The position numbers were made by a program, and so were the translations under genes. From positions 32,001 through 96,000 of the IMG/VR virus record IMGVR_UViG_3300010413_000020: 64,000 nucleotides of DNA. The stretch is one strand, 5' to 3'. The notes beneath the pieces were generated by a model, which saw only the letters and a program-made list of their open reading frames with translations, was not told the DNA's origin and did not search any database. Every line of letters starts with the position of its first letter. Within the stretch, counting starts at the first letter, position 1. The stretch is from a virus. Positions 4,143 through 25,210 of the stretch are shown in pieces.

Positions 4143-5593
4143 ATGCCGTTGATGCCATTCTTTTAGAACCTAACGGAATTCAACAGAGTGTTACGGGAGA
4201 TTTATCGGTACAGATTGATTACTCTGCTGATGTTGATCCTAAAGAATATGAATTTTCTGGAACATTTGAACGAGAACTTCATTATATGACTCCAGCATTG
4301 TTTGCTGATTTCTTTTTGGTTCCGGCGAATGCTCTTGATGATGGTGACACTCTGGCCATTTGGTTTGAAGAATTTATTGACGATGGGACGATGGACCCAC
4401 CTACGGGGCGTAGACAAGCTATTCCTTCTAATTCAAATACAACAGTGGGCACTGGCGTTGGAGAACTCTTCAAAACAACTCTTTATCCTGAACGCATACC
4501 TCTTGCTATTCCTCTTTGTAAACGCATTGGAGATTACCTCTTTTGGATAGATGGTACAGTTATTAGTCCTGATCAGACAGAACCTGTACCGTTTGGGATA
4601 AACGGGGCAACTCTTTATGATTTGCCCGTTCCTATTACGGGAGAGTGGTTTGATGTAGGAAGTCCTCCTGCGTGGGTACCTGCGTCAATTACTGAATCTT
4701 TTGACAATATAATCAACGATCTTGCTACAGCTACATCTCCACTTTCTGGAGCTGATTTAATAGGAAAAAAAGAACTTACTTCGGGTTCAGGCGATGAATC
4801 AGCTAATCCTTTATGGTTTGGTGGTGAATACAGCATTGGTGATTGGTTGGATGCTATGCTTGCTATTCTTAATAAAAAACCATCACTTACTGGAAGCGCT
4901 GAAAGTATACATAATATTTGGAACTTTTTAACAAAGATTAAATTATCAGGAGCTAATGCTGCTTTTATCGAAGGAGCAGATGCGGATACCTGGACGGGGG
5001 ATACTGTTAAATTATTTGAGTCTCTTCCATTCGGAGGTAGCGGTGTTGCTATTAGGGTTTATTATTCCGAACATGGTATTAAACTTTGTATAAACTGTAG
5101 TTTTAATGGAGCAACCGGACAGTATACACGAGATGTTGCCAGTCCCTATAGGTCTATGGTTATTGAGATCACTGATCGTCATATTTATTTTAGAAACAAG
5201 CACTATGCTGAAGCAAGTCCTTGGACCGATGCGAATTGGACAACATATTTAAATTGGGATTCTTTTGAGAGTCATGCTTATTTCAGTAATGAAGGAGATG
5301 CTTCAGATTATGTTAGGGCAGGACTATTTGGAAAAGAATATCATGGTAGTGCGAGTGTATACCTCTATGATGGGGAAGCTGTAACTTGGCATTCTCGTAT
5401 TGGGGATATTGTTGATACGGATGTTTATGCGTATGAAGATGATAATACAAATTGGGATACTTCAGGTACTGCTACGGTGAATTTAGACCATGTAGATCCC
5501 TGGGGTTGTTGGATTTCTGGGCATAGTAATGCCGTAGGTGCTTATCTGATTGCACAATGGGTAGGTTGGATTGAAGTATTTGTAAATGTCTAG
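4088..5593 (+). CDS. Tail fiber/receptor-binding-like protein, C-terminal fragment (ORF track 4139-5593)
   Basis: TTG start with no SD; W/Y/G/D-rich beta-type C-terminus; SGADLIG motif. Confidence 0.5.
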   Translation, partial: CNSRDDGQTQVSHIQTALNAVDAILLEPNGIQQSVTGDLSVQIDYSADVDPKEYEFSGTFERELHYMTPALFADFFLVPANALDDGDTLAIWFEEFIDDGTMDPPTGRRQAIPSNSNTTVGTGVGELFKTTLYPERIPLAIPLCKRIGDYLFWIDGTVISPDQTEPVPFGINGATLYDLPVPITGEWFDVGSPPAWVPASITESFDNIINDLATATSPLSGADLIGKKELTSGSGDESANPLWFGGEYSIGDWLDAMLAILNKKPSLTGSAESIHNIWNFLTKIKLSGANAAFIEGADADTWTGDTVKLFESLPFGGSGVAIRVYYSEHGIKLCINCSFNGATGQYTRDVASPYRSMVIEITDRHIYFRNKHYAEASPWTDANWTTYLNWDSFESHAYFSNEGDASDYVRAGLFGKEYHGSASVYLYDGEAVTWHSRIGDIVDTDVYAYEDDNTNWDTSGTATVNLDHVDPWGCWISGHSNAVGAYLIAQWVGWIEVFVNV

Positions 5594-11516: not shown

Positions 11517-12839
11517 TTAATAAGAACGCCTACTTAATCGATGATGTGTGTGAGAAACCCAGTGGAAGTCTTCCCAGTGGTGGTAAACATCTTCCAATGT
11601 TTTTGCTTCTGCGTTAAACCAAGCCGTACCTCTTCCATTACCCAACGAGAAGTTTAGCCGGAGTTCTTCTCGTGCGTAGTAAGTGATTCCTAGAGCGTAG
11701 TATTGAGTACTCCGCCACTTTCCTCGGTGAGTGGGACTGGTCCGATGTCCCGCAAGTTCAATAAGTACCGCTTTCAATTCAGGATTGACAGGAACTCCCT
11801 TATGGGAAGCCTCAATATCTTTTCCGTACTTTTCGATAAAGGTTTTGGCTTCCGCGAAATCAGCAAAGGTTTCTACTCCATTCCAGGGTTTGGTGTGTCG
11901 TACAATTCCGAATTTGAGTTCTTTGCTTTCTACTGCAAAAGTAGTCCAATACTTACAGGAGTTATAACGTTTGTTGAGCTCATAGGCATTGAGTAATAAG
12001 TAGTTCAATTCTGCATCGGTGAATGGAATATGAACTTTATTTAATATCTCAACTACAGCATCCCCCGAACTTATAGGATACGGGCCGGAACACCAACGTC
12101 TTGAATGTTTGTCTCGTTGTCTTAAACAGGTATCTGCTACAAAACATTGAGAGCATACTTCTTTCTCAAACTTGTTAAAACGTTTTCGTTCTTGAATGCC
12201 TTTCTGTATTTGCTGAGACTTGTAATCGATTACTGAAAAGTCATGGTCTTCTGGTAGCCTGAAAGTTTTTCCGAAGTCTTCAGCGAGCGTGAGTCGGGGG
12301 CTAATATAGGTGAATCCTGCAATACGTGAAACACGATTCTTAAGATTCTTGAACGCTTCTCCTATCGTTGCTTCTCCTTCAGTAAGAACTAATTTTTTGA
12401 TAGCACAATCCCTGGGGTTATCTCCTGATTCGAAACAACCCTTACATCCAATAATGGATTTTTGGGGGAGGGTACAACTATAATAGATATCATAAAGATT
12501 GTGTTCCTTGATACCTTCTTTAGGAGAATAAGCTAACACAACTTGTCCTTTCCGCGCTGATTCCAAATCGTGGGCCACACTAGACGCAATTTCACTAGCT
12601 ATTTTCCAACAAAACCCGCCGCTATCTGCGCCAAGCCAGGTATCTCGATAGATTAGGGCTCCTCCTTTCAAAAGATTTTGAAGTTCCGGGTCGTTCATGA
12701 TGAGATGCTGGGTTGCTGGTTCTTCAATTACCGGATCGTTGGAGAGAGAAGTAAATAACATAACGAGAGGGCTGTCTTCATCGACATTGTAGGTATCGGA
12801 AGTTGCGATTGTGAATACCTTATCCGGCGTTTCAGGCAT
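11517..12839 (-). CDS. Cys-rich hypothetical protein translationally coupled downstream of the RT
   Basis: GGAGGAG SD before ATG 12839, overlapping the RT stop; C...CKGC...C and CSQC...C...C clusters. Confidence 0.75.
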   Translation of the reverse strand: MPETPDKVFTIATSDTYNVDEDSPLVMLFTSLSNDPVIEEPATQHLIMNDPELQNLLKGGALIYRDTWLGADSGGFCWKIASEIASSVAHDLESARKGQVVLAYSPKEGIKEHNLYDIYYSCTLPQKSIIGCKGCFESGDNPRDCAIKKLVLTEGEATIGEAFKNLKNRVSRIAGFTYISPRLTLAEDFGKTFRLPEDHDFSVIDYKSQQIQKGIQERKRFNKFEKEVCSQCFVADTCLRQRDKHSRRWCSGPYPISSGDAVVEILNKVHIPFTDAELNYLLLNAYELNKRYNSCKYWTTFAVESKELKFGIVRHTKPWNGVETFADFAEAKTFIEKYGKDIEASHKGVPVNPELKAVLIELAGHRTSPTHRGKWRSTQYYALGITYYAREELRLNFSLGNGRGTAWFNAEAKTLEDVYHHWEDFHWVSHTHHRLSRRSY

Positions 12840-14004
12840 GACTCCTCCCCTCATATTGTTCTTTAGCTGCGGTAAACTCCGCTAGTAGTTGTGTTCCTTT
12901 CTGGGGATTTATCTGTCCCATGTAATTTATTTTTCCTCGAAGCCATGTGAGGAGTGCTCCGCCATTTTTCTGTCCCGCTTTAGCTGCTTGTGAATCAAAC
13001 CCGTGGACTAGGCAATTGTGGGTGATCGCTCTTACTTTCCTATATTCCATTGCTGGGATATTCGGCCTTTGGTTGAAAACTGTTCCAAGAAGGAATCTAC
13101 CGTAATAGCCGTGGGCAATCTTAGTTTTACCGGGATTGATACGGTAGCCTGTATTATGTACGATAGATTTGATGTCCTCGATGAACTGAAGAGTTTCGTC
13201 TTTACTGAAAGTACGTCCACACGTGAATGATAGGTCATCACAATAACGGGTATACACCCACTTCTTTGTTCCCTCGAGCTTGTCCTTTTCGTTTCGCTTA
13301 TTCAGGTAAGAAATTATCTTCCCATCGAATAAATCGTTTGCTACGAGATTGCATATTGCACCAGAAGCAGGTGAACCCTGGGGAACTCCGCTCAAGAATT
13401 TAGGTACCCAAGCATCCGGAGATAACTTACTTTTGTGGCGATATTGCGGATTGGGAAAATCTGTAACCGTGAGTAGGTTCGCCAGCAGGCTTGCGACTTC
13501 ATGATTATATCCTATCTTCTTGAAGTAGTTACGTATCATGGCGCGACTGGTGGATGGAAAGAAATCCTTGAGGTCCATGTGCACATATAATCCCTTACGC
13601 GGACAGTCATGCGCTTTTGGGGTTTTGGTTCCGGCATCTTCGCAAATTTTACAAGGAGGAATGTGCTGAAGGACGGCGTGTCTACAGGAAAGACCCTTTC
13701 GATAGGCCGTTACGTGAGCCCCTAATTGGTCTTGTAAAGGAACCAAATATCGGATGTGAAGTTGATGGAGCAATAATTTCATCATGTCATTTGGAGAATG
13801 TAAAATGCGATGTCCTTTCTTCTTTTTAGGTATCTTGAAGATTTCGTACATATCCTTCTTGTTCTCCAACATGTACCACATTACCTTATTGCGAAATCCC
13901 AGACTGAAAGCCAACGAACAATCGTCAAACGCATAGGGCACTTCATCCGGAAGATCAGGAAGCTCAATTACAGCAATTTGTGTTTTATTAAATCCCACAC
14001 TCAT
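12832..14004 (-). CDS. Retron-like reverse transcriptase
   Basis: KKKKGHRILHSP, AYRKG..HAVLQH (region X-like), DLKDFFPS, PQGSPASGAICN, YTRYCDDLSF, INPGKT and LLGTVFN (region Y-like) motifs. Confidence 0.93.
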   Translation of the reverse strand: MSVGFNKTQIAVIELPDLPDEVPYAFDDCSLAFSLGFRNKVMWYMLENKKDMYEIFKIPKKKKGHRILHSPNDMMKLLLHQLHIRYLVPLQDQLGAHVTAYRKGLSCRHAVLQHIPPCKICEDAGTKTPKAHDCPRKGLYVHMDLKDFFPSTSRAMIRNYFKKIGYNHEVASLLANLLTVTDFPNPQYRHKSKLSPDAWVPKFLSGVPQGSPASGAICNLVANDLFDGKIISYLNKRNEKDKLEGTKKWVYTRYCDDLSFTCGRTFSKDETLQFIEDIKSIVHNTGYRINPGKTKIAHGYYGRFLLGTVFNQRPNIPAMEYRKVRAITHNCLVHGFDSQAAKAGQKNGGALLTWLRGKINYMGQINPQKGTQLLAEFTAAKEQYEGRSHA

Positions 14005-14654
14005 GCCTCACCTCCTGCTTCTTCTACTGAACGCTTAGAGTTGTTGTAAAACTCGTTGTCCAATGCCAGTTCAGATTCTGCCTTTGATTTGCAAGTGAAG
14101 GTACCTGGCGTACACTGATTTGAATGATATCCCGGTAGATTTTTGCAAACAGCGCAGAGTACTGGAATAGTCCTGGTCGGAGTATGAAACGCAATTTGCG
14201 GCATCATAACTTTTTCGTTATGCCCTCTTTGAATTGCCCGTGACATAAGATATCCGACTGAAGAGGCGTATGGGTTTTTGAATTTCTTAGCATCTCCATA
14301 CACCGTTCGTACATGAGTAGGCACAACCATTATCCAACCTCTGTGGTTTCGTATGAGTTTCTGGAAGTTGTCTTGGGATGTTCCGGGTGTTCCCTCTCTT
14401 CGCAAATCGTTGCGTTCCACAGATATTTCGCAGAGGTTATCTACGTGTAAGCTATTAAGTGCTTGAAGCAAATCTTTGTCTAACGGCATTGAGAGATAAT
14501 AACGAAATGTCTTTCGAAAAACAGGTGCAAGTTTTTCACGTGCTAGGTACACGCGGTCATATGGAAAGTAATCATAGATAGGGGTCTTTTGGGAATGACG
14601 TAGTTTATGTTGTGCGATTTTCACACAAATAATCTTCTCTCGTCGTTGTGTCAT
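14001..14654 (-). CDS. Basic hypothetical protein with C-terminal Cys cluster, coupled upstream of the RT
   Basis: ATGA overlap with the RT start; CAVC...C...C. Confidence 0.75.
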   Translation of the reverse strand: MTQRREKIICVKIAQHKLRHSQKTPIYDYFPYDRVYLAREKLAPVFRKTFRYYLSMPLDKDLLQALNSLHVDNLCEISVERNDLRREGTPGTSQDNFQKLIRNHRGWIMVVPTHVRTVYGDAKKFKNPYASSVGYLMSRAIQRGHNEKVMMPQIAFHTPTRTIPVLCAVCKNLPGYHSNQCTPGTFTCKSKAESELALDNEFYNNSKRSVEEAGGEA

Positions 14655-14670
14655 TTGCTTCTCTCCCTGT

Positions 14671-16341
14671 TTAATCTTTGATCTTTAAAACCCTTGGTTG
14701 CATGTATTCGTTTTCAGTTCCAGTAGATGTGAGTACCCAGATAAGCGGGCATGGAGGTAAATATTCAGGAATGGGTCCGTGTGGCGGGCCAACCGGAGCT
14801 TCCCCGTCCGTTAAGAGAATCGCTAAATCTGGGGGGTCCGTCATAGGATTTTCTTCTCGGTCAGCGTTGGGCATCCAGTCCCCTTCTTCGTCTCTTCCAC
14901 ACATGTATTTGAGGGGTGGCGTAAAGCTTGTGCCACCATAGCCGTAACGATTGATTAATTGATATCTGTCTCTGGCGAATTTTTCAGTATCATCGGGACC
15001 CAGAAGTTTCTCATACTGAATGGCATGGTCGAACATGATGAGACGTATTGTTACTTCGTCTTCCTGGTTCATAATGCCTCGAATTTCGGCCATGAAATCC
15101 AGAAATTCGGATTGACTGACACTGCCGGATGTATCGACCATACACGCGATGTTGAATGCAAAGTTCTTTTGGAATCCGGGATAGGGTTCCATACCTTCGT
15201 CTTCCAGATGGAAGAAACAGGGATTGGGATACGCGGTGCTTTCATCCAATTTGGAAGAAACTTCTGATCGCATCATGTTTTGTAGAACAATCTGCCAGGG
15301 AATTGTAGGCTCCTCGAGTAAATCTTGGATAGCTTCCATGAATTTTCCTGGAACTTTTCCACAACTTTTCTTGGTTTGTTCTACTGCGTTTTTGGTTATC
15401 CTTTTGGCTTCTCTCTTTGCACTATCAATTGCTCGTTCAATCTCGGCGCTGGTCATCTCATCAAAATCTAAATTCCAGGGGACGTTTTGAGGGTTCTGGC
15501 CGCGTACTAGATCTTTAAACCACTCTGGGTAATTATCGTCCAGGCCGTCTGCGGGGGATAATTCTTCTGAATTAGCTCCACCACCTCCTTTGTTGTTATC
15601 CCCTTCTTTGTCACCCTGACCAGATCGATTATTATCCTCTGTATTCTGGGTGGAAGATTTTGAAGAACCATCAGGGGAATCTCCTCTTCCACCTTTGGAA
15701 TTTCCCGATTGGCGGGAGGACCCACCTTGTTGATTGGATTGATTGGCATTACACCCTCCTATCATTGGTATGATTTGTAGATTTGGATTAAATCCGTCTT
15801 TTTGCATATTTTTCATTAATTCATTAAAATAGAACTCGAAGGATTGCCCTGTTGGATAGTTGTATTTCGCTTCTTCCGGCCAAATAAATCTATCTCGATA
15901 CTTCGCAAAATTGGTACGTGGAGTTTCCAGGATAGGACGAACAGCAATGTCGTTTGCTGCCATATCCGCTGCTACATTCATTATGGGTTGTAAACGGGCA
16001 TAACGAATATTATCGTTGAGTTTCAGACGGATGCGCAACATTTTTTCCAGGTGTTGAAGAGCCAAATGCGCGGCTTCATGAACCACTACGAGTAATTGAA
16101 ACGGTCCTTCTTGTTGTACAAACCAGACAGGATGCCAAACCAACATGTACCTGCCGTGATTATCGAGAGTTACTGCTGCCGTAGGTGGCCAAAGGTCTTT
16201 ACGGGGGGCGCGACCACAACCATTAATCATGCGGGCATAGAAGTTACTGCCTCCTCGGGGACTACAGAGCCACTGTAGAGCTCGAGACATTGCTCGGTCT
16301 ATCTCTTCTTCAGAAAACTCTTGTTGTTTTATCTCTTCCAT
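14671..16341 (-). CDS. Metallopeptidase-like (HExxH) plus vWA domain protein (DUF2201-like MoxR partner)
   Basis: VVHEAAHLALQH; MIDAS DTSGS...GGTSF...LTDG; low-complexity G/S/N linker. Confidence 0.88.
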   Translation of the reverse strand: MEEIKQQEFSEEEIDRAMSRALQWLCSPRGGSNFYARMINGCGRAPRKDLWPPTAAVTLDNHGRYMLVWHPVWFVQQEGPFQLLVVVHEAAHLALQHLEKMLRIRLKLNDNIRYARLQPIMNVAADMAANDIAVRPILETPRTNFAKYRDRFIWPEEAKYNYPTGQSFEFYFNELMKNMQKDGFNPNLQIIPMIGGCNANQSNQQGGSSRQSGNSKGGRGDSPDGSSKSSTQNTEDNNRSGQGDKEGDNNKGGGGANSEELSPADGLDDNYPEWFKDLVRGQNPQNVPWNLDFDEMTSAEIERAIDSAKREAKRITKNAVEQTKKSCGKVPGKFMEAIQDLLEEPTIPWQIVLQNMMRSEVSSKLDESTAYPNPCFFHLEDEGMEPYPGFQKNFAFNIACMVDTSGSVSQSEFLDFMAEIRGIMNQEDEVTIRLIMFDHAIQYEKLLGPDDTEKFARDRYQLINRYGYGGTSFTPPLKYMCGRDEEGDWMPNADREENPMTDPPDLAILLTDGEAPVGPPHGPIPEYLPPCPLIWVLTSTGTENEYMQPRVLKIKD

Positions 16342-16415
16342 TTATCTTCTCCTCTGTCTATAATTCAATAGGCGTGAGACGAACGCCATAGATACAGGAA
16401 CGTTGAGGTGTTTAT

Positions 16416-17429
16416 ATGACCCAGGTAATTGACCAGACAAATGACCCAGGTTTTTCTACTTTGAGGGTGATCGTGGACCGTTTTCCTCGATTGAGAGAAA
16501 TGGCTAAAACTGCTAACCTCGATCCCTCTGAATTTTCAAATTTACCCGACGAAGCATTTGCATGGCCGGGACAGCGGCGGTTTCCTATACATAATGCGGA
16601 GCATACCGCACTGTCTATGGGTTACAGTAAAGTTGCTCAGAAATTACCATCGGATGTGGCAGAAACGATGGAGAAAGCCGCGTCTCTGCATGGGGTGGAT
16701 ACTGAGGCATTCGAGGAACCGGTTGCAATCGAAAAAGTAGCATCCGACGATGGGCATTATCTCATCCCTGACAAGCGTAGATTTAAGATAGCATCTAAGG
16801 AAGATGTGCCTGTTGCGGAACGGATAATTCATGAAAAATACTCATCCCTCTCGGTCGGAGATAGAACTATTGCTTGTATGCAATTAGTTAAGGTCGCGGA
16901 GGAATACGGGGAGGAGTTACATCCTTCTACCATTAAACTCGCGGGTTTAACAATTACGAGTACTCGTACTATGCGAGATTGGATAGAGGCACGTAAAGAA
17001 GCTTCTCTAAGACTTGGATCTGCGATGGCTCAAGCATTTGAAACGTTAGCTAATCAATTTCAGGATGTAGAACCTTTTATTCATAATCGTGGCGACCAAA
17101 TGAAACTGGCTAGTGCTTTACAGCGCATGGACGAGGCTGCGGGGTTAACTCAATTTTATGGCCGTAAGTTGTTAGACCCTATAGAAACAGTCTTTAACAC
17201 TCCTCATCGTTCCGATAATTTTGTTAAAGTGGGTTCCGCACTTCAGAATAAGGCACTCTTAGCTTCTCTCCCTCTCTCGTTTTGGGAAGACGCGTTAGGA
17301 CCAGAAATTGCTGCCGAGATAGCCCCTAACGGTCAGGTGGATATAACTATGTTGGAGCAGATTCTTCCCACGCTGCCCGCCGATTTAAAATCGGCCTTGG
17401 AAACCCAACTCGCTGCGTATAATCGGTAG
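16416..17429 (+). CDS. Putative virion/head-associated protein with KxA motifs
   Basis: GAGG SD; AFAWPGQRRFPIH; KTA, EKAA and EKVA motifs. Confidence 0.65.
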   Translation: MTQVIDQTNDPGFSTLRVIVDRFPRLREMAKTANLDPSEFSNLPDEAFAWPGQRRFPIHNAEHTALSMGYSKVAQKLPSDVAETMEKAASLHGVDTEAFEEPVAIEKVASDDGHYLIPDKRRFKIASKEDVPVAERIIHEKYSSLSVGDRTIACMQLVKVAEEYGEELHPSTIKLAGLTITSTRTMRDWIEARKEASLRLGSAMAQAFETLANQFQDVEPFIHNRGDQMKLASALQRMDEAAGLTQFYGRKLLDPIETVFNTPHRSDNFVKVGSALQNKALLASLPLSFWEDALGPEIAAEIAPNGQVDITMLEQILPTLPADLKSALETQLAAYNR

Positions 17430-17432
17430 TTT

Positions 17433-18197
17433 ATGGAACAACTTCTGGAAAAATTTGCGGAGCATGTTTCCCATCTTACAAATTACACTGTAAAGACCGC
17501 CCAGAGAGCAGACATAGCACGAAAGTACTTACGCGAAGGGGATGAACGCTCGGCTGCGGCTTTGTTGATGGCCCTGCGTACTCTTCATGGAATTGAGTCA
17601 TTCTATTGGGAACCTGAGACTATTTGGTTGACCCTCGAACGGGATGATCATTTAGACATGGAAGAATTGGGACGTAATAAATTACAAGCGGCTATTACCC
17701 TTATTGTTAATCCTGCATTTTTTTGGGACAATCTCGTATTCCAACGAACGGTTCAGGCACTTAATGGAGAACCCTTTGACCCAGAAGCACTTCAGGAATG
17801 CCATCCAGGATATATGTCTTGGGCAGTTTACGAATCAGGATTGATTCGAGGATTAGACCCTGAGGAACCTGTATCTGCTGAACTGGATGAAGATGTTCAA
17901 CAATACGTAGCAGTCTGTTTGAAGCGTGCAGGTTATGTATATCCTCCTAATCAATTAATCGCTGTTGCTGACAATTTAGAAAAGATTCTTCCTAGAGAGA
18001 CCAAGCCATTTATCGACCAAGTAAAAAAATCATGGGAGCACCTGGACAAGGGAGCCCTCTCGGAACGTACATTCCAAGAGGACCCCCTCGATGTCCAGTT
18101 AGCGCAACTTGCTTCCTGTTACGAATATGTGCGAGAACGCGCCAATGAAATGGCGAGTGAGATTCTTTCGTTAGACCGAGAACTCCTCAACTCCTGA
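17433..18197 (+). CDS. Hypothetical protein
   Basis: 254-aa ORF coupled to the previous gene. Confidence 0.7.
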   Translation: MEQLLEKFAEHVSHLTNYTVKTAQRADIARKYLREGDERSAAALLMALRTLHGIESFYWEPETIWLTLERDDHLDMEELGRNKLQAAITLIVNPAFFWDNLVFQRTVQALNGEPFDPEALQECHPGYMSWAVYESGLIRGLDPEEPVSAELDEDVQQYVAVCLKRAGYVYPPNQLIAVADNLEKILPRETKPFIDQVKKSWEHLDKGALSERTFQEDPLDVQLAQLASCYEYVRERANEMASEILSLDRELLNS

Positions 18198-19407
18198 TTT
18201 TTTCTTCCATTCCGCGATAGTTGTTGTCTATTTCTAACTGAAGATTACACCAACTATCATAGTCTTGGAGTTCTCGCATCAGCGAATTGAGATATTCTTC
18301 CGATTTATTTTCCTCGGCAATAGACCGCATTTGAAAGAGCATTGCTCCGGCCATCTCCAGTGGGTGCAATTCTATGAACTTAAGAAAGTTCTTGGCGGTG
18401 TCTTCTACGTCTGGAGTTGTCGCAAACATCAAACGCAAAACGTTTTGGTCCAAATCAGCCAGGGGTTCATGCATGGCATTATCGACCATTTTCTGTATGG
18501 CGTTTTTGACTTTACTGAATCTACGTAAAACGTCATCCGCACCAATTGTTAAAGAAGAATCTTTAAGATGTGCGGATAATTCCGAGGCCATGGTTACCCC
18601 TATGGATGCGGCGAATCGTTGCATAGCAAATTCGCTATTTAACGGAATACCCTTTGCTTCCATGTTGTAGGAATCTTCGCTGATGGTTTCGATGTTAGCA
18701 GGACAGTTATATTGTTTCTGTTCTTTCAGAGCCTTCCAGTCGTATATGTTGTTTGGTTTAGCTCTAAAGTAATCCAGAATACCAGGATGACAGGCTTTAT
18801 CTTTTGCTGCGCCTTGTCCGAAGAGATGGAATCGTTCAGTAGCAGCGTGTTTCATGAATCCTTTTAAATCCGGCAATACATAAAAGAATTTAACGCGACG
18901 GCGTATCGCCGCTTCATTTTCAATCGAAGTTACATTATATTCCGCGGTTGAGGGATTCATCGTTCCTGCAACAAGACATTGTTTGGGCACCACATAGTTA
19001 AACATGCGCCCGTCTTCCATCATGGTAAAGAATTGATTAATGGCATGTTTGAGCCCGCGGTTGAGCTCATCAAAGAGAATGATTTTCTTTTCATCTCCTT
19101 TAGGAAAGATTTCAGGAACGGCAACTTTGAAAAAGTCTTCAAGGGTACGCACTGGTATGCCGGAACCCATTAGGCCCCAGTGAGCAGTATGAATAGGAAC
19201 GACGGTGTATCCTGTGTCATGCGCTATCTGTGACCAAATCTGTGTTTTGCCTATTCCCGAATCCCCTACCAGGACAATACAGCCCCGTCGTTGGTGAAAT
19301 TCTAAGGACAAGCGAATTTGAGCCGCAGCTTCCGCAAGTGTGACCTGGGGAATGTCGCGCAATTCAGCATACTTAGGAACAACTTTTTCTTCTTCTTTAC
19401 TTGCCAT
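18187..19407 (-). CDS. MoxR-like AAA+ ATPase
   Basis: Walker A GDSGIGKT, Walker B ILFDELNR, TMNP, AAIRRR. Confidence 0.88.
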   Translation of the reverse strand: MASKEEEKVVPKYAELRDIPQVTLAEAAAQIRLSLEFHQRRGCIVLVGDSGIGKTQIWSQIAHDTGYTVVPIHTAHWGLMGSGIPVRTLEDFFKVAVPEIFPKGDEKKIILFDELNRGLKHAINQFFTMMEDGRMFNYVVPKQCLVAGTMNPSTAEYNVTSIENEAAIRRRVKFFYVLPDLKGFMKHAATERFHLFGQGAAKDKACHPGILDYFRAKPNNIYDWKALKEQKQYNCPANIETISEDSYNMEAKGIPLNSEFAMQRFAASIGVTMASELSAHLKDSSLTIGADDVLRRFSKVKNAIQKMVDNAMHEPLADLDQNVLRLMFATTPDVEDTAKNFLKFIELHPLEMAGAMLFQMRSIAEENKSEEYLNSLMRELQDYDSWCNLQLEIDNNYRGMEEKIRS

Positions 19408-19433
19408 GCTTCTCTCCTTGCTTTAACTTTTAT

Positions 19434-21053
19434 ATGATGAAAGGCAATTTACAGCACTTTCGAATGAGTAGTGTCGCACAGGCATGGCTGCGCCTGGACG
19501 GACAACCCTTTCGATTAGATGATTGGCCGATGCACAAAGAGTTCTACGATGGGAGATTCCGCCGTAGTCTTTTTAAAACAAGTCGTCAGGTGGGTAAGAG
19601 CGTCACCATGTGCAACTTCAGTATCATTGAGTGCTCTCTTATACCGCACTTTTCTACAATGTTTGTGGCTCCCACTAAAGAGCATACCGTTAGATTTTCG
19701 AACACACGTTTAGGAAAGATTCTTCGCTACTCACCGGTTATTAACAAAACTTTTTTACGTACTGAGCTCGCTGATCGTGTGTTTCATAAACAATATACTA
19801 ACGGCTCTGAGATGCTGTTGACCTATGGGTCCGATAGTGAGGAGCGGGTTCGTGGACCTTCAACTGACAGAAACATGTACGATGAGGTCCAGGACATGCT
19901 TTATGACCCGGTTATTACTGTTGGTAATGAAACAATGTCCAATTCTCCTCATGCTTTTGAGACTTATGCGGGCACTCCTAAGACTATGGAGAATACCATT
20001 CAGTATCTCTGGGAGATTTCGACGCAGACAGAATGGGTGATGAAATGTGATGCCTGTGGGTCATACCAATTTATAGATAACGAAAAACACTTGGGGAAAT
20101 TAGGGCCGGTCTGTTTGAAATGCAAGTCTTACTTGAATCCTTTCCATGGCACCTGGATTGATATGAATCCTATAGATTACGGTGCAGGGGAAGACGAAGA
20201 CACAAAATTAAAAGGTTTCCACATATCTCAACCCATGATGCCTTTCAATGTTCCAAAGTCGATGGAAGGGCGTGGAGATATGGAAGAAGTCGCTCTCCGG
20301 CGATGGAAACGTATTATTAATAAGTTCGAGGGTACACCTATCTCTGTATTCCGCAACGAGGTTCTCGGCGTTTCCGACGCTATTGGTACCCGCGTTCTTT
20401 CTAAACAAGAGCTCCAGGCTCTTTGTACTCCCCGTGAAATGCAAGATTTCCCTAATGATAAAACACTTGAAGGAATCAGTCTTACCGTAGGTGGTGTGGA
20501 TTGGTCTGGTGGGGGTACTACAGGCGTTTCTCGTACTGTAATATGGATATGGGGTTTTAGACCTACAGACCGAAAACTAGTCTGTCTTCTCTATAAAGTG
20601 CTTGCGGGAATCAATCCAGTGAATGTCATAGACGAAATTGCAAAAATATTTGATGCATATCGTGTACAACTTGTTATTGGAGATGCGGGTGAAGGCCATA
20701 CGGCTAACAATCTTTTGCGAAGCAAAATTGGAATTCACCGAGTACAGCAAGTACAATATGGTGCCCAAAAAAAGGCTATTAACTGGAATGGAGAAGACCG
20801 TTGGATGGCCGACCGTACAACTCTTATCGACAACTATTTCATGGGTTTGAAACGGCAAGAATTTGAATTTGCTACTCGCTCTGAGATGGAAGTTGCCATC
20901 ACCGATATTCTTAACGAGTATGAGGAAATAACTACAGCAGGTCGTCGTGTTTGGCGTCATTCTCCTCAACGTCCAGATGATTGTCTTCATGCAGGACTTT
21001 TTGGTTGGCTTGCCTTTAAAATGGTTATGGGGGATATGAGAATGTATCAGTAA
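19434..21053 (+). CDS. terL: Terminase large subunit (GpA-like, with zinc finger)
   Basis: TSRQVGKS, VRGPS, MYDEVQD, GTPKT, CDAC..CLKC, nuclease GVDWSGG...DDCLHA; start likely ATG 19434. Confidence 0.88.
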   Translation: MMKGNLQHFRMSSVAQAWLRLDGQPFRLDDWPMHKEFYDGRFRRSLFKTSRQVGKSVTMCNFSIIECSLIPHFSTMFVAPTKEHTVRFSNTRLGKILRYSPVINKTFLRTELADRVFHKQYTNGSEMLLTYGSDSEERVRGPSTDRNMYDEVQDMLYDPVITVGNETMSNSPHAFETYAGTPKTMENTIQYLWEISTQTEWVMKCDACGSYQFIDNEKHLGKLGPVCLKCKSYLNPFHGTWIDMNPIDYGAGEDEDTKLKGFHISQPMMPFNVPKSMEGRGDMEEVALRRWKRIINKFEGTPISVFRNEVLGVSDAIGTRVLSKQELQALCTPREMQDFPNDKTLEGISLTVGGVDWSGGGTTGVSRTVIWIWGFRPTDRKLVCLLYKVLAGINPVNVIDEIAKIFDAYRVQLVIGDAGEGHTANNLLRSKIGIHRVQQVQYGAQKKAINWNGEDRWMADRTTLIDNYFMGLKRQEFEFATRSEMEVAITDILNEYEEITTAGRRVWRHSPQRPDDCLHAGLFGWLAFKMVMGDMRMYQ

Positions 21054-21116
21054 CTTTTGTCGCTGTCCGCTTATTTTCCAATGATTGCAGTGGAAAAGAA
21101 GTGTTGTCAGAGTCTT

Positions 21117-21143
21117 TTTGCGAATAATGCCTATTCGCAAAAT
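21117..21143. terminator. AT-rich inverted repeat after terminase (terminator or 5' boundary of the array RNA)
   Basis: TTTTGCGAATA-ATGCC-TATTCGCAAAA. Confidence 0.5.
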
Positions 21144-22164
21144 AGCGCCCTAGCTTGATTGCAAAGAACGGAGCGTAACGCTCCAGCGTCTCTAACAGAG
21201 AGAAGCTCCGACAAAAGTCGCTGACCTTCTGGAGAGGGCCCTTTCAGGTCCTCCTGAAGACGGGACCTCGGCAAGAGGACAAACCCGGTACTGCTGTCAT
21301 TAGATGGGGCTTTTATCCCCGGCCCGAGTGGCGTGGGCTTCCACGGGGCAGGCGGGCTCGGGGGTAAAAGAACCAGTAATGGCACTGCTGTCTTAACGTC
21401 CTGTTTAGGGTGCTCCTGATAGCCTGCGACTTGAAGAGGCGCGGCTCTCAGGGGCGTCCCTGAACAGGTGGTTCAGGCACTGCTGTCTTAACGGGCCGGA
21501 ACTGGTCAGAACCGTGGGGTGAGCCGTGAGGCGAAACCCCGGTGAGGACCTAGTCCGGCTGTTCAGGCACTGCTGTCTTTAGAATCTAGTGGCCTGCCAA
21601 AGGAAAAGCGAAGCGATCCTTAGGCAGAGCAGACTAGAGACTAAGGCACTGCTGTCTTATTTTCTCAACGCGAAGCCGCCCGGCTGCAGCACACTACTGT
21701 GCGGAAGCCTGGTGCGGCTGAACGGGGAGAAAATAGGCACTGCTGTCTTATGGGGTCCACACCGCGCACTCCTCGGGGCTGCGGTGTGACGCCTAGGCAC
21801 TGCTGTCCTATGCATTTGCCGCGGGCACTGCATGACATTTCCCGTCCAATTGAATGAAATGCCTGCGAGTGCCTCGCGTCGAATGATTGGGCACTGCTGT
21901 CTTGCATACGTTCCCCGTGCGAGGTGTAATGGTAGCCGAAGGGGCCATTATCACCTGCGGGGGAACATATACAGGCACCGTTGACTTTGCTCGGGCCCAT
22001 GTGCCCAACGGCAGTGGGCTCCGTGCAAGGCACTGCTGTGATCTAGGAGACGAAAGCCACCACCCCGTGGTGAACAAAGTGAACCACTCAGGTGGTGGCG
22101 CGTTTCCTAATCGCGACAATCAGTAATGGAGCGTATCGCTCCGACTCCGACAGCGCTCTGTTTT
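21139..22164 (+). ncRNA. Putative ~1-kb structured ncRNA: serial long hairpins joined by a conserved ACUGCU linker
   Basis: GC-rich island with no credible CDS; every inter-repeat unit folds; G.U wobbles and a GUGA tetraloop favour the + strand; the two ends are complementary. Confidence 0.8.
21287..22042 (+). repeat. Array of 10 direct repeats, consensus GGCACTGCTGTCTT, with unique 41-81 nt hairpin spacers
   Basis: Copies start at 21287, 21381, 21476, 21566, 21645, 21736, 21796, 21890, 21974 (degenerate) and 22029. Confidence 0.95.
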
Positions 22165-22207
22165 ATAATACAGATGGAGTTCCAGTACCAAAAGCTTATA
22201 CCGATAG

Positions 22208-25200
22208 TTAATCGATGTTTGTAAAATCGTAACGAATTTCTTCTTCAATAAAGTCGTAATCTTCTTGATTGAATTCTACAACGGGATGTTCTGACAGGTA
22301 ATGGTCAACAGATTGCAGTTCTCCATAAGAAGGGCCTACTTCTACATCCCAGGCAAAGGGTACAGGAAGCCATGGATATTGCTTAGCCACTCTGCGAACA
22401 CCGTATTCTTTGAAGAAGTCCGGCATTTGTCCAATGTATTTTTTAGGCAGTTCGAAAACGATAGAATCATGTACAGTAATGAGCAGATGTCCTCCCATAT
22501 CGCGAATAGGACCATCTACATCACAGAGAACACCCATCACAATATCTGAACTTGTACTTTGTATTTTGAAGTTAACCGCTTGACGTTCTGCTTTGGCAAC
22601 CATATAGCGAGTCATTCCCTGTAGATCAAGACGTCGTCGGCGTCCGATAAACGTTTCAACTAACCCAAAGTTGTGTACCTGATCTTTTGTAAGTTGAATA
22701 TACTTCGGGATTGTGGGAAACATTCTAAAGAGAACATCGATAATTGCTTGTGCTTGGTCATTGGGAATTCCAACAATAACTGAGATTTTATTTTTACTGG
22801 CTCCATAAAGAATTCCAAAAACCACTCGTTTTACATTCTTACGAAGCTTATCGAGTTGTTTTCCATACCAAGGATCATCCTTCTCTATTTGTTCTCTATT
22901 TTGAAAGTCTTCGTAGGTCCAAGCGTGAACATCATCGATGCCTATTGTATCTAGAACTTTTTGTTTATCGCTTTCGCGTACTCCCTGTAAGACGCTCTTA
23001 GGATTATAAACCATAGAGGAAAAGAAACTATGTGGGTCCATTCCATCATTTAAAGCTCGAATGAGGTTGGGGTCTTTACTGTACGCAGCGTAAACGCGCA
23101 CTTCTGCGGCTTTGGCATCAGCGTTAACAATTAATTGAGTTTCGGGATTAGTGGGAATGAATATCTTTTTGATATTATGTGAACCGATTCGTTTAGGGAT
23201 ATTTTGCATATTTTCATCAGAGGATGATAGCCTTCCCGTTGCGGTTCCTGCTATATGAAAAGATGTGTGCATCTTTCCATCTTCTCGACTCAATGCTCTG
23301 ATGTTTTCTACGAATGTGTTTCGTGCTTTGCTTACTCCTCGGTATTTAAGGAGAGCTTTGGCAAAGGGACAATCTTGTTGTGTTACAAGTCCTCTTAAAA
23401 ATTTAGCGTCAGTTGAAATCTTGCCTGTAGGCGTGTAACTTAATTCTTCTTCAGTCAAATGATTATAAGATATTATCTCGTTAGTTTCGGGATGATAGAA
23501 TCCCGCACCGAATAGAACTTTTCGAAGATGGGCAGTGCTATTAGGATTGAATTGCTCATCGAAGAGATTTGGTGGGATCATTTTAAAGAGATCGATTTTA
23601 AGCATTATAATTGATTCATCCATATCGACGACTAAGTCTTCGATATATTTTTGGTCAACTGCCATACCGTAGAGTTCCATGTCTGCTAATATCTTAGAAG
23701 AAGGAATTAATCGCTCGAACATCAAATCTTTCAATGGGTCTTTGGAAGAACATTCAGGAGTAGCGATATTACGAAAATAAGGACTCTTACTTATCTCTCG
23801 ACGTTGTTTTGCTAAGTGTTTATTCTCTTCTTCAATTCGAGCTCTTTGAATTGTGATAAGTTGTCGAGTAACATCGGCATCTACCGCGCCATATTCATTT
23901 AAGTCCTTTAAGGGAATATTAATAAAACCTTCGTCTTGCGCCAGTTTTTTAGCAGCGCCTTTTTCTTGAGCTGCTTCTTTCAATGCGTCTTTGGTTTCTA
24001 AACTATCCAAAATAGTTTTGAGTTGGTCTTCGTAACCTGAGTATTTTGGAATCATTAATTTAGTTAGGGCTTTCAGGCTATAATAACCACGTTTATCCTC
24101 AGAAATTAAGTGCTCTCCCAACATCGTATCCCATGCAAATCTACGGACTTCCCAACCTTTACGTTGTAATACTTTGAGGTCGAACTTAGCGTTGTGAAAT
24201 CCTTTGGGTTTAGGACATTGGAGTAACTGTGTAATATAAGGATGGACATCTGCCAGACTCCAAGGGGTTTCGGGGTGTTCAATAGGGATAGACGCAGCTT
24301 TGCCTGGTGCCCAAGAAACTACAAGACTTAAGATTTTAAGTTTTTCACGATGAGGATATAGCGTATTGGTTTCAGTATCAATTGCGATGACGTGGTTATC
24401 TGGGTTCTTTCCTGGAGGAGCGTATTCGACAACCATTTCTACGAGTTTACGCACGTCATCCAATTTCTTTGGAAAGATATAATCTTTAATCAATTCACTT
24501 AAGGGCACTTCGGTATTAATAGTTTTTCCATGCTGTTGTTCGTAGACAGCATCCATAAACATTTCTACGTGCTGTTGGAAGATTTTGTAGTATCCGGTTT
24601 TGACCAATAATGCACGTTTAGAAAACGTGGGAAATATAATTACAGGGCGATTACCTAATTTAGTCTCCAGGAATTTGCCTTGGACCGAAGCGTATTTTCC
24701 GATCTTAAGACCGAAAGACTGCACGACTGATGGCCCAAGGGCAAATACCATTATAGGTTGATCGTTATGTTTAGCGTGCTTGAATATTTCATCACGGAAT
24801 TGAAGATAACAACATGAACGCATTCTTTTATTGGGTTTATCCACACTACATCTGACAGACGAAGTGTACCGACCAATAAGATTAGCTGTGCGTTTGTGTG
24901 TGTCTTTATATTTTACGAAAGTATCCAGAATAACTTTTTCAACATCGTATCTCCAAGTAGTGTGATTTTTTACATCAGCTGACGGCCCTGGAAGATAAGG
25001 CGATTCGGTAATGCAGAAATAATCGGCTCCAGTAGGGCCAATGCCCTCTGCATAATGTTCTTTGCGGTAAGCGGGACATTCCGAACACTTAGAACCTTTC
25101 CATGCATTAGGGCCACATAAATTACACTGTAAAAATTCAGTAGAGGTTTCGTTACCATTCGTGGTCACTTGCGTCTTTGGCCTGTTCGGTGGGTTTATCT

Positions 25201-25210
25201 TCGTCGGCAT
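22208..25210 (-). CDS. polA: Family A DNA polymerase with N-terminal UDG-like domain and 3'-5' exonuclease
   Basis: IDTET, HNAKFD and YGAVDAD (exonuclease); TGRLSS..NMQNIP, DAKAAEVR, KRVVFGILYG, AVNFKIQS and TVHDS (polymerase). Confidence 0.93.
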   Translation of the reverse strand: MPTKINPPNRPKTQVTTNGNETSTEFLQCNLCGPNAWKGSKCSECPAYRKEHYAEGIGPTGADYFCITESPYLPGPSADVKNHTTWRYDVEKVILDTFVKYKDTHKRTANLIGRYTSSVRCSVDKPNKRMRSCCYLQFRDEIFKHAKHNDQPIMVFALGPSVVQSFGLKIGKYASVQGKFLETKLGNRPVIIFPTFSKRALLVKTGYYKIFQQHVEMFMDAVYEQQHGKTINTEVPLSELIKDYIFPKKLDDVRKLVEMVVEYAPPGKNPDNHVIAIDTETNTLYPHREKLKILSLVVSWAPGKAASIPIEHPETPWSLADVHPYITQLLQCPKPKGFHNAKFDLKVLQRKGWEVRRFAWDTMLGEHLISEDKRGYYSLKALTKLMIPKYSGYEDQLKTILDSLETKDALKEAAQEKGAAKKLAQDEGFINIPLKDLNEYGAVDADVTRQLITIQRARIEEENKHLAKQRREISKSPYFRNIATPECSSKDPLKDLMFERLIPSSKILADMELYGMAVDQKYIEDLVVDMDESIIMLKIDLFKMIPPNLFDEQFNPNSTAHLRKVLFGAGFYHPETNEIISYNHLTEEELSYTPTGKISTDAKFLRGLVTQQDCPFAKALLKYRGVSKARNTFVENIRALSREDGKMHTSFHIAGTATGRLSSSDENMQNIPKRIGSHNIKKIFIPTNPETQLIVNADAKAAEVRVYAAYSKDPNLIRALNDGMDPHSFFSSMVYNPKSVLQGVRESDKQKVLDTIGIDDVHAWTYEDFQNREQIEKDDPWYGKQLDKLRKNVKRVVFGILYGASKNKISVIVGIPNDQAQAIIDVLFRMFPTIPKYIQLTKDQVHNFGLVETFIGRRRRLDLQGMTRYMVAKAERQAVNFKIQSTSSDIVMGVLCDVDGPIRDMGGHLLITVHDSIVFELPKKYIGQMPDFFKEYGVRRVAKQYPWLPVPFAWDVEVGPSYGELQSVDHYLSEHPVVEFNQEDYDFIEEEIRYDFTNID

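What the first reader, a model, noticed from the sequence alone, without database searches (positions are those of the whole stretch)
11517..22164. Candidate new system: orphan retron-like RT with two Cys-rich partner genes and a trans-encoded hairpin-array RNA
Seen: the RT (12832-14004) has retron-type hallmarks (HAVLQH in place of NAxxH, PQG, YCDD, LLG in place of VTG). It overlaps both neighbours (ATGA upstream, 8 nt downstream), so there is no intergenic space for the msr/msd that retrons normally carry just 5' of the RT. Established: retron RTs recognise a structured ncRNA whose ends pair (a1/a2). The only large structured ncRNA candidate in the window is the end-paired array about 7 kb away. 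Inference: the RT may copy array units into a set of distinct hairpin ssDNAs (for example decoys against host defence or DNA-binding proteins), assisted by the flanking proteins. The link rests on co-occurrence only.
Basis: partly seen in the sequence, partly recalled or inferred. Interest (0 to 1): 0.85.

Follow-up and report, generated by a model that had tools for sequence, protein, structure and literature searches.

The report
Phage retron with scattered template RNAs
A large uncultured phage carries a retron-type reverse transcriptase with no template RNA beside it, and elsewhere in the genome several RNA genes built like retron templates, one with about ten template hairpins behind a single leader; that layout has not been described for retrons.

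Summary
The RT at 12832-14004 (-) is real and belongs to the retron clade. It sits in a gap-free operon: VWA, p217, RT, p445. Both unknown partners have invariant Cys4 clusters. The array between TerL and PolA is real.

The RT-to-RNA link is still inferred.

- The two terminal hairpins do not pair with each other. Each is a copy of a conserved triloop hairpin (hp2).
- The grammar reads on the minus strand, the RT and PolA sense: [a1]-G-hp1-hp2-[long hairpins]-AG-[a2]. This is the canonical retron msr-msd layout.
- The window holds two such elements: A (21052-21219) and B (21287-22190; one a1, nine intact a2 units and one degenerate).
- Three more lie elsewhere in the same genome. Dozens occur in related RT-carrying phages, each with different, complementary a1/a2.
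- About 12 related loci without the RT lack the elements. They probably form one clade, so this is one contrast.
- The msd parts fold better as the complement, which is the cDNA sense (p=1.5e-5).
- A complex model supports RT-p217 binding.

No cDNA has been observed. Earlier first-stage notes on this genome proposed the minus-strand model; nothing was found on other DNA. Novelty: new variant of a known kind. Interest is high.

The parts
12832..14004 (-). Retron-clade reverse transcriptase (390 aa). It has YCDD and PQG, with HAVLQH and LLG in place of NAxxH and VTG. An inserted, invariant C118/C121/H132/C134 cluster is present.
   Evidence: Pfam RVT_1 8e-14. PADLOC retron RT models, best RT_XIII 4e-49. 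NCBIfam retron_St85 8e-37, against group II 3e-11 and Drt2 3e-8. PDB sequence hits at E<=0.01 are almost all named retron RTs; one is named only RNA-directed DNA polymerase. Invariant residues.
14001..14654 (-). p217: unknown protein with an invariant CxxC...CxPGxxxC cluster. Its gene overlaps the RT start by ATGA. It is the predicted RT-binding partner.
   Evidence: Alignment of 15 homologues. No Pfam, PADLOC or NCBIfam hit. No PDB fold match. Complex model with the RT: ipSAE 0.82, best control 0.00.
11517..12854 (-). p445: unknown multi-domain protein with two invariant Cys4 clusters. Its gene overlaps the RT stop.
   Evidence: Alignment of 14 homologues. AF2 model pLDDT 83.5. No PDB fold match, best Z 4.4. 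No family hit.
14671..16341 (-). DUF2201_N plus VWA-like protein. It is the first gene of the operon and is gained or lost together with the RT.
   Evidence: Pfam PF13203 and PF09967. Synteny and co-absence.
18187..19407 (-). MoxR-type AAA+ ATPase, gained or lost together with the RT operon.
   Evidence: Pfam AAA_5/AAA. phrog_1297. Co-absence in RT-less relatives.
21052..21219 (-). ncRNA element A (retron msr-msd-like). a1 is 21219-21209 and the unpaired G is 21208. hp1 is about 21207-21186 and hp2 is 21185-21169. Two msd-type hairpins lie at about 21142-21116 and 21101-21070. AG is 21064-21063 and a2 is 21062-21052, overlapping the TerL stop codon.
   Evidence: Sequence. Descriptor hit with an 11-bp helix. 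The a1/a2 pair covaries in L129, L131, L139, L138 and L130.
21287..22190 (-). ncRNA element B, the hairpin array. There is one a1 (22190/89-22183), an unpaired G at 22182, hp1 at about 22181-22145 and hp2 at 22142-22128. Ten long hairpins follow. Each intact unit ends with AG plus an a2 copy. The a2 copies (+ strand GGYACTG) start at 22029, 21890, 21796, 21736, 21645, 21566, 21476, 21381 and 21287. A degenerate copy lies at 21975. Only the outermost a2 (21287) pairs with a1 without a wobble.
   Evidence: Relatives carry 2-4 units with the same AG-a2 junction. All 10 units fold, and 8 of 10 fold better as the + strand.
19401..21053 (+). Large terminase. It is a flanking marker and not part of the system.
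   Evidence: Pfam GpA_ATPase and phrog_675.
22208..25210 (-). Family A DNA polymerase. It is a flanking marker. Element B starts 18 nt after its stop codon on the same strand.
   Evidence: Pfam DNA_pol_A. Sequence.

Best explanation
This is a phage-encoded retron-type system whose parts are unlinked.

Proteins. The RT is probably bound to p217, is co-expressed with p445, and is co-inherited with a VWA protein and a MoxR ATPase.

Templates. The RT acts in trans on a family of msr-msd-like RNAs transcribed from the RT and PolA sense strand. Each RNA closes through a private a1/a2 helix. Two short hairpins follow a1: hp1, then hp2 with a G-C closed NNA triloop. These would be the RT's recognition module (msr).

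Proposed reaction. The invariant unpaired G after a1 would supply the 2'-OH primer. Copying would start at the invariant AG just 5' of a2 and run through the long hairpins (msd). The products would be hairpin single-stranded DNAs. In array B one msr serves about ten AG-a2 units, so ten different hairpin DNAs, or one long multi-hairpin DNA, could be made.

What is shown and what is inferred.
- Shown here: the anatomy, its conservation and covariation, its strand, its phyletic distribution, and the RT's retron affinity.
- Inferred: that the RT binds and copies these RNAs.
- Unknown: what the DNA does. My guess is counter-defence or takeover, because the module is a conserved core block of a lytic-type ~170-190 kb phage group.
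For: 1. RT affinity. The RT is retron-clade by every profile tested. Its catalytic YxDD and QG motifs are invariant across the family.

2. No room near the RT. No template space exists next to the RT in 13 of 13 relatives.

3. Layout. The elements match the retron ncRNA definition in PMC7736814: complementary a1/a2 ends, a branching G, 1-3 short msr hairpins and 1-2 long msd hairpins.

4. Grammar statistics. An unbiased search for helices enclosing hp2 found G after the 5' arm together with AG before the 3' arm in 22 of 114 helices. About 1.8 are expected by chance. Stringent descriptor hits exceeded shuffles in G000 (4 vs ~0.7), G006 (10 vs ~2), G007 (4 vs ~0.5) and G009 (9 vs ~2.7). RT-less G004 did not exceed them (3 vs ~2.2; the two hits checked lie inside ORFs).

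5. Independent test. The fixed grammar applied to 80 new RT-anchored loci gave about 25 hits just beyond the TerL stop (about 20 distinct elements). All are on the RT-sense strand. About 11 hits were scattered elsewhere.

6. Covariation. a1/a2 differ in every element yet stay complementary. hp2 shows compensatory changes at 5 of 6 pairs in the hand-picked set, with none broken.

7. RT-carrying genomes without the TerL-PolA array. G001 and G003 carry elements at a second, syntenic locus upstream of a dNMP kinase gene. G006, G007 and G011 carry elements there too. G008 has at least 4 elements with a variant hp2.

8. RT-less relatives. About 12 loci lack MoxR, VWA, p217, RT and p445 together. They have protein genes, not elements, between TerL and PolA.

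9. Strand asymmetry. The msd parts fold better as the complement (cDNA sense): -48.1 vs -42.0 kcal/mol, 30 of 41 elements, Wilcoxon p=1.5e-5, G-U pairs 132 vs 69. The msr parts are symmetric. The asymmetry holds for elements in either genomic orientation.

10. Array units. Every intact internal unit keeps AG-a2 here and in L129, L131 and L137.

11. RT-p217 complex model. ipSAE 0.82, best of 3 controls 0.00. That mark was reached by 58 of 80 solved complexes and 2 of 110 mismatched pairs. The runs agree in at least 85% of contacts and the partner pLDDT is at least 80.
Against: - No cDNA, RNA or expression data could be obtained.
- No known retron has its ncRNA unlinked from the RT, several ncRNAs per RT, or several msd units per msr.
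- The exact retron motifs NAxxH and VTG are replaced: A-x3-H spacing and LLG.
- All NCBIfam retron scores are below the curated cut-offs.
- The RT-plus versus RT-minus contrast is probably a single evolutionary split. The co-distribution therefore counts as about one independent event, and the elements could be a clade trait unrelated to the RT.
- I derived the grammar on some of the same loci. Only the test is independent.
- a1/a2 in array B is only 7-8 bp.
- The complement-sense stability of the hairpins could instead mean that the functional RNA is the other strand.
- A simple count of T-runs downstream did not favour either strand.
Confidence: 0.58

Rival explanations
1. The elements are a clade-specific family of structured RNAs with a job of their own. 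Examples would be processed small RNAs, RNA stability or regulatory modules, or binding platforms for another phage protein. On this view the RT uses some other template or none, as AbiK or DRT9-type enzymes do. The retron-like grammar would be coincidental or would reflect a different junction-specific enzyme.
For: - The elements are physically unlinked from the RT, at 7 kb and 45-49 kb, and in some genomes lie on the other strand (G006 and G003).
- The hairpins fold better in the TerL sense, which is what a plain TerL-sense RNA would show.
- The phyletic contrast is about one event.
- A single hp2-like hairpin also sits in the 5' leader of the p337 gene in G003, which hints at a general RNA-binding site.
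Against: - It does not explain the invariant G after the 5' arm and AG before the 3' arm: 22 joint cases vs 1.8 expected.
- It does not explain why the layout copies the retron msr/msd order, nor why the only clade carrying the elements is the one with a retron-clade RT that lacks any adjacent template.
- The msr part shows no strand asymmetry while the msd part does.
Confidence: 0.27
2. The array is a DNA-level feature and not an RNA gene. It could be a packaging (pac) or replication-origin region next to the terminase with repeated protein-binding sites. It could also be a stack of terminators between convergent genes, or decayed miniature inverted-repeat elements.
For: - It lies directly between the terminase and the DNA polymerase.
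- It has a 12-14 nt motif repeated 9-10 times in one orientation.
- The elements have terminal inverted repeats.
- Unit number varies between relatives, from 0 to 10.
Against: - The repeats are 60-139 nt apart with unique spacers that keep hairpin potential through compensatory change. That is selection on single-strand folding.
- The same grammar occurs at other loci, far from the terminase and inside same-strand gene runs.
- Every element has different terminal repeats, unlike a transposon family.
- The simple terminator scan found only three sites, against 1.4 in shuffles.
Confidence: 0.06
3. One reading: a plus-strand array RNA whose two ends pair through the repeats at 21169-21185 and 22127-22143 is copied unit by unit by the RT.
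For: The two repeats are 88% complementary over 17 nt (I2).
Against: - Each repeat is a perfect self-hairpin. It is also a direct repeat of the other (D4).
- The same hairpin type, with different stems, occurs singly in every element of the family.
- The grammar places the RNA on the minus strand.
Confidence: 0.03

Closest known systems
Bacterial retrons (RT plus msr-msd ncRNA plus effector), e.g. Ec86/Eco1, Ec67, Ec78, and type XIII Mx162
   Same: - The RT belongs to the retron clade: best PADLOC model RT_XIII 4e-49, and PDB hits that are almost all named retron RTs.
- The RNAs have a1/a2 ends and an unpaired G right after a1.
- One to three short 5' hairpins are followed by long 3' hairpins.
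- Accessory genes are translationally coupled to the RT.
   Different: - The ncRNA is not next to the RT.
- At least five ncRNA genes serve one RT.
- One element carries about ten template units behind one msr.
- The partners p217 and p445 match no known retron effector. They show no SWIM/winged-helix or HEAT/ARM domains as in type XIII.
- NAxxH and VTG are altered, and the RT carries a CCHC insertion.
- The system is a core block of a lytic-type large phage and not a bacterial defence island.
Viral retron-like RT clades noted in metagenome surveys (RTC3/RTC5 in PMC13681634)
   Same: These are phage-encoded RTs that share ancestry with bacterial retron RTs, found in IMG/VR-type data.
   Different: That survey reports only the RT phylogeny and domains. 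It describes no template RNA, partner genes or genome context.
DRT2, DRT9 and DRT3 defence RTs with dedicated ncRNAs
   Same: A single RT works with a structured ncRNA template and makes unusual cDNA products.
   Different: - The RT here scores far lower on Drt2 (3e-8) than on retron models.
- The ncRNAs of those systems are adjacent to the RT, lack the a1/a2-G grammar, and are bacterial defence genes.
CRISPR-like or ToxI-like repeat arrays
   Same: A short conserved repeat alternates with variable segments in one orientation.
   Different: - The repeats are 12-14 nt, the 'spacers' are self-complementary hairpins, and no cas or toxN-like gene is present.
- The repeat is complementary to a single upstream segment (a1).

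Membership tests
Retron | RT belongs to the retron/retron-like clade | tested here: met
   - The top 25 PADLOC hits are all retron RT models, the best being RT_XIII at 4e-49.
- NCBIfam: retron_St85 8e-37 and retron_Ec67 5e-30, far ahead of group II (3e-11) and Drt2 (3e-8). All are below the curated family cut-offs.
- PDB phmmer hits at E<=0.01 are almost all named retron RTs; one is named only RNA-directed DNA polymerase.
- No tree was built.
Retron | [quoted passage not shown] | tested here: not met
   The sequence has RHAVLQH, where the A-to-H spacing is one residue longer, and FLLG instead of VTG. A110, H114, L306 and G307 are invariant or nearly so in the phage family. These are variant forms, not the canonical motifs.
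Retron | msr-msd ncRNA contiguous with the RT gene | tested here: not met
   The genes overlap on both sides of the RT, and 13 of 13 relatives have the same gap-free operon. The descriptor scan finds no element near the RT.
Retron | ncRNA with complementary a1/a2 ends, a branching G at the end of a1, 1-3 short msr hairpins and long msd hairpin(s) | tested here: met
   This is met by sequence and covariation for elements A and B in the window, C, D and E in the genome, and about 40 elements in relatives. Whether the G is a branch point is inferred only.
Retron | Production of 2'-5' branched multicopy ssDNA | not testable with these tools
The only indirect sign is that the msd parts fold better in the cDNA sense.
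Retron type XIII | Accessory protein with DEDE motif, winged helix and C-terminal SWIM CxCx12CxH; HEAT/ARM-repeat partner (PMC7736814) | tested here: inconclusive
   p217 and p445 have no Pfam, PADLOC or NCBIfam hit. Their Cys patterns are CxxC-type, not CxCxnCxH. Fold searches found nothing above Z 4.4. Distant homology is not excluded.
Diversity-generating retroelement | DGR-clade RT with template/variable repeat pair | tested here: inconclusive
   No DGR family appears among the NCBIfam hits, and the RT has QGxPxS of the retron/group II type. No TR/VR search was run.
Group II intron | Intron RNA domains around an RT/maturase | tested here: not met
   TIGR04416 scores 42.9 bits against a cut-off of 300. 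No Rfam group II hit occurs in the window.
DRT / UG / Abi defence RTs | Membership of a DRT/UG RT class | tested here: not met
   None of the 25 PADLOC rows shown (of 66 hits) is a DRT model. Drt2 scores 33 bits against a cut-off of 390.

The most novel reading that the evidence does not exclude
A phage runs a trans-acting, multi-template retron. One RT, with p217 and p445, primes from a branch G on five or more dispersed msr-msd RNAs. One of these has a single msr followed by about ten alternative msd units. The result would be a programmed repertoire of hairpin single-stranded DNAs during infection. That would be the first retron used by a virus as core equipment, and the first with unlinked and arrayed templates.
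Probability: 0.5. Interest if true: 0.9.

Novelty: new variant of a known kind. Interest (0 to 1): 0.82.

Why it matters
Retrons are known as compact bacterial anti-phage cassettes with one RT and one adjacent template RNA.

If this reading is right, it would change that picture in three ways.
- A whole group of ~170-190 kb phages keeps a retron-type RT as a conserved core gene.
- The RT is uncoupled from its templates.
- The templates are multiplied, up to a one-leader, ten-template array.

That would reverse the usual role of retrons, with the virus as user and not as target. It would point to unknown roles for hairpin ssDNA in infection.

It would also offer a natural design for making several defined ssDNAs from one RT. 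That is of direct interest for retron-based genome editing, where multiplexing is currently engineered by hand.

The prediction is cheap to test in E. coli by co-expression.

Tried and rejected
RNA and DNA searches
- Rfam at gathering and at E<=10 found nothing meaningful.
- Tandem Repeats Finder and tRNA scans of the region found nothing.
- An exact-motif scan of viral contigs with GGCACTGCTGTCTT returned only single chance matches.
- Nucleotide searches against cultured phages found no match. The nearest cultured TerL is only about 29% identical: Salmonella phage Arash and Vibrio phages D181, D148 and D69.

Descriptor searches
- The first loose descriptors (a 6-7 bp helix, any hp2) gave chance-level noise in GC-rich genomes, so I tightened them.
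- I considered a covariance model and dropped it. MAFFT could not align the variable hp1, and an hp2-only model would carry too little information.
- The 100% pairing is circular, because the seeds were chosen for a perfect hp2 stem. I do not use it as evidence.

Strand tests
- UUCG tetraloops as a strand marker failed. The loops are UUC triloops, and none is a canonical cUUCGg.
- Downstream T-runs did not discriminate the strands, 3 vs 3. By eye, terminator-like hairpins follow the last element in L180, L181, L187 and G003.
- The sigma-70 promoter scan found nothing upstream of a1.
- d(C-GAA-G) is the commonest cDNA-sense triloop, but only 5 cases. The signal is too weak to use.

Protein searches
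- Fold searches for p445 and p217, by Foldseek on the PDB and by VIA-align wide, gave no match above Z 4.4.

Locus retrieval
- The search for related loci with the dNMP kinase, the helicase and P0108 found nothing.

Tools unavailable

Full report
**Context.** The window is bases 32001-96000 of a 107-kb IMG/VR viral contig, estimated about 60% complete. No cultured phage is close. The nearest TerL is about 29% identical: Salmonella phage Arash and ~187-kb Vibrio phages. Related complete contigs are 170-194 kb.

**The RT and its operon.**
- The ORF at 12832-14004 (-) is a reverse transcriptase (Pfam RVT_1).
- The 25 best PADLOC hits are all retron RT models, led by RT_XIII at 4e-49, then type III-A at about 1e-43.
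- NCBIfam ranks retron_St85 (8e-37), retron_Ec67 (5e-30) and retron-TIR (2e-25) far above group II maturase (3e-11) and Drt2 (3e-8). No score reaches a curated cut-off.
- Sequence hits in the PDB are almost all named retron RTs: Ec67, Ec86, Kva2, Ec78 and St85.
- The family comprises about 115 protein clusters at 90% identity. All come from metagenomic contigs of up to ~190 kb. There is then a gap to bacterial RTs of 470-510 aa at E~1e-27.
- A survey paper has noted retron-like RT clades in viruses but describes no RNA or context (PMC13681634).
- The RT has an inserted, invariant C118/C121/H132/C134 cluster.
- The RT overlaps p217 upstream (ATGA) and p445 downstream. All 13 relatives examined have the same gap-free order: VWA, p217, RT, p445.
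- p217 has an invariant CxxC...CxPGxxxC. p445 has two invariant Cys4 clusters.
- Neither protein matches any Pfam, PADLOC, PHROG-function or NCBIfam family, nor any solved fold (best Z 4.4).
- A complex prediction supports RT-p217 binding. The score is 0.82 and the best of 3 controls is 0.00. That mark was reached by 58 of 80 solved complexes and 2 of 110 mismatched pairs. The runs agree in at least 85% of contacts and the partner pLDDT is at least 80. The interface uses the RT N-terminus.

**Synteny and gain/loss.**
- The block is conserved in all relatives with TerL at 53% identity or more. It runs TerL, MoxR, p254, p337, VWA-p217-RT-p445, p291, p124.
- It is also conserved in a deeper subclade with a ~340-aa RT and TerL at 36-50%.
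- A sister group of about 12 loci, including one complete 191-kb genome (G004), keeps TerL, p254, p337, p291, p124 and PolA. It lacks MoxR, VWA, p217, RT and p445 together.

**The array.**
- Between TerL (stop at 21053) and PolA (stop at 22208) lie 1154 nt with no credible ORF and raised GC.
- GGCACTGCTGTCTT-like motifs occur 9 times, all on the + strand, against 0.31 expected. They are separated by unique hairpins.
- The closest relative (L125/L129, RT 75% identical) has the same flanks but only three units. Other relatives have 0-4 units and motif variants.

**The grammar.** I compared 13 regions by eye and then by script. They show one repeated design, which reads sensibly on the minus strand:
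- a 7-16 nt segment, a1;
- an unpaired G;
- a short hairpin, hp1;
- a second hairpin, hp2, with a 5-8 bp stem, an invariant closing G-C and a triloop ending in A;
- one or more long hairpins;
- AG;
- the exact complement of a1, called a2.

This is the retron msr-msd layout as defined in PMC7736814.
- Element A is window 21052-21219.
- Element B is the array, 21287-22190. It has a single a1 (GGUACUG) 18 nt after the PolA stop. Nine AG-a2 copies and one degenerate copy follow.
- Only the outermost a2 pairs with a1 without a wobble.
- hp2 shows compensatory changes at 5 of 6 pairs, with none broken.
- a1/a2 differ between elements and lineages but stay complementary. Examples are ACUUUUGUCG, ACUAUUGUCG, UCUGUUG, AUGCCG and CUAACUG.

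**More elements.**
- The same genome has three further elements outside the window: G000 5328-5452, 5209-5318 and 8195-8321. Earlier first-stage notes had flagged these spots.
- The 5.3-kb locus lies upstream of a dNMP kinase gene. At the syntenic locus, G011 has four tandem elements, G006 three, G001 two, G007 one and G003 one.
- G001 and G003 are RT-carrying genomes with zero spacing between TerL and PolA. So "RT without the array" is true at that site but not genome-wide.
- G008 first looked empty. It has at least four elements with a variant hp2 loop.

**Statistics.**
- I searched for the best helix enclosing each hp2-type hairpin, with no condition on the junction. G after the 5' arm and AG before the 3' arm co-occur in 22 of 114 helices, against about 1.8 expected. 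RT-less G004 has none.
- With the full grammar, hits exceed block-shuffled controls in G000, G006, G007 and G009, but not in G004.
- The two G004 hits I checked lie inside ORFs.
- As an independent test, I applied the fixed grammar to 80 newly fetched RT-anchored loci. It gave about 25 hits just beyond the TerL stop (about 20 distinct elements). All were on the RT-sense strand. About 11 were scattered elsewhere.
- In the RT-less clade the TerL-PolA interval holds protein genes and no element.

**Strand and the cDNA signature.**
- The junction grammar fixes the RNA sense. The A-ending hp2 triloop reads as a U-first loop on the other strand and does not by itself discriminate.
- The msd parts nevertheless fold better as the complement. 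Across 41 non-redundant elements the mean is -48.1 vs -42.0 kcal/mol, and 30 of 41 favour the complement.
- The Wilcoxon test gives p=1.5e-5, and G-U pairs number 132 vs 69. The msr parts are symmetric.
- The asymmetry follows the element's orientation, not the genome strand. This is what one expects if the selected fold is that of the DNA copy.
- The alternative reading is that the functional RNA is simply the other strand. That reading leaves the junction grammar unexplained.

**Assessment.** The finding is real and more interesting than first stated.
- Best reading (about 0.58): a phage retron with unlinked, multiple and arrayed templates.
- Main rival (about 0.27): a clade-specific RNA family unrelated to the RT.
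- Weak points: there are no expression or cDNA data; the RT-plus versus RT-minus contrast is a single phylogenetic split; and I defined the grammar partly on the data used to test it.
- The biological role of any ssDNA is unknown.
- The MoxR/VWA pair is co-inherited, but it may be functionally separate.

Noticed in passing
window 13603-13653 (RT residues 118-134): The RT carries an inserted C-x2-C-x10-H-x-C cluster that is invariant in 14 relatives. The ~340-aa RT subclade is about 50 aa shorter; whether it lacks this insertion was not checked.
   Followed up: partly
window 14671-16341 and 18187-19407; loci L153-L155, L307-L346: The MoxR AAA+ ATPase and the DUF2201/VWA protein are present or absent together with p217-RT-p445, although two other genes (p254, p337) lie between them. 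This may be a five-gene functional set or just one ancestral insertion or deletion.
   Followed up: partly
L127:914-3676; L133:11597-15946; L152:11616-15974: TerL in L127 (920 aa vs ~550) and PolA in L133 and L152 (~1450 aa vs ~1000) carry large insertions that split the alignment. They are probably inteins or homing-endonuclease inserts.
   Followed up: no
G000:C1:8210-8512 (outside the window; locus L179): A small ORF encodes a ~50-aa CxxC...CxxC zinc-ribbon protein. It lies directly upstream of retron-like element E (8195-8321). The element contains AACAGCAGUGGUGCC, which resembles the a2 repeat of array B.
   Followed up: partly
L251:3600-4230: In this relative three tandem elements lie between p254 and p337, not after TerL. 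So the elements move between intergenic sites within the conserved block.
   Followed up: no
G003:C1:156100-156125 (L148 about 6870-6895): A single hp2-type hairpin (UGUGCAAG-UAA-CUCGCACA) lies in the divergent VWA/p337 intergenic region, just before the p337 start codon. hp2-like hairpins may also act as stand-alone sites.
   Followed up: no
G003:C1:51130-51590 (L162:11130-11590): This is a 460-nt highly structured non-coding region (z = -7.8 on the + strand). Its first domain follows the a1-G...AG-a2 grammar with a 10-14 bp closing helix. It lies on the strand opposite to that genome's RT.
   Followed up: partly
window 22191-22207 and the same position in L129, L130, L131, L137 and L138: A conserved GGTAWAAG sits 8-9 nt upstream of a1 of array B on the minus strand. 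It might be a promoter -10-like element for a phage or host polymerase. The sigma-70 scan did not call it.
   Followed up: partly
window 21608-21614 and msd parts of relatives: Read in the cDNA sense, the commonest triloop hairpin in msd parts is C-GAA-G. From my own recollection of the literature, this is a very stable DNA mini-hairpin. There are only 5 cases, so the point is anecdotal.
   Followed up: partly
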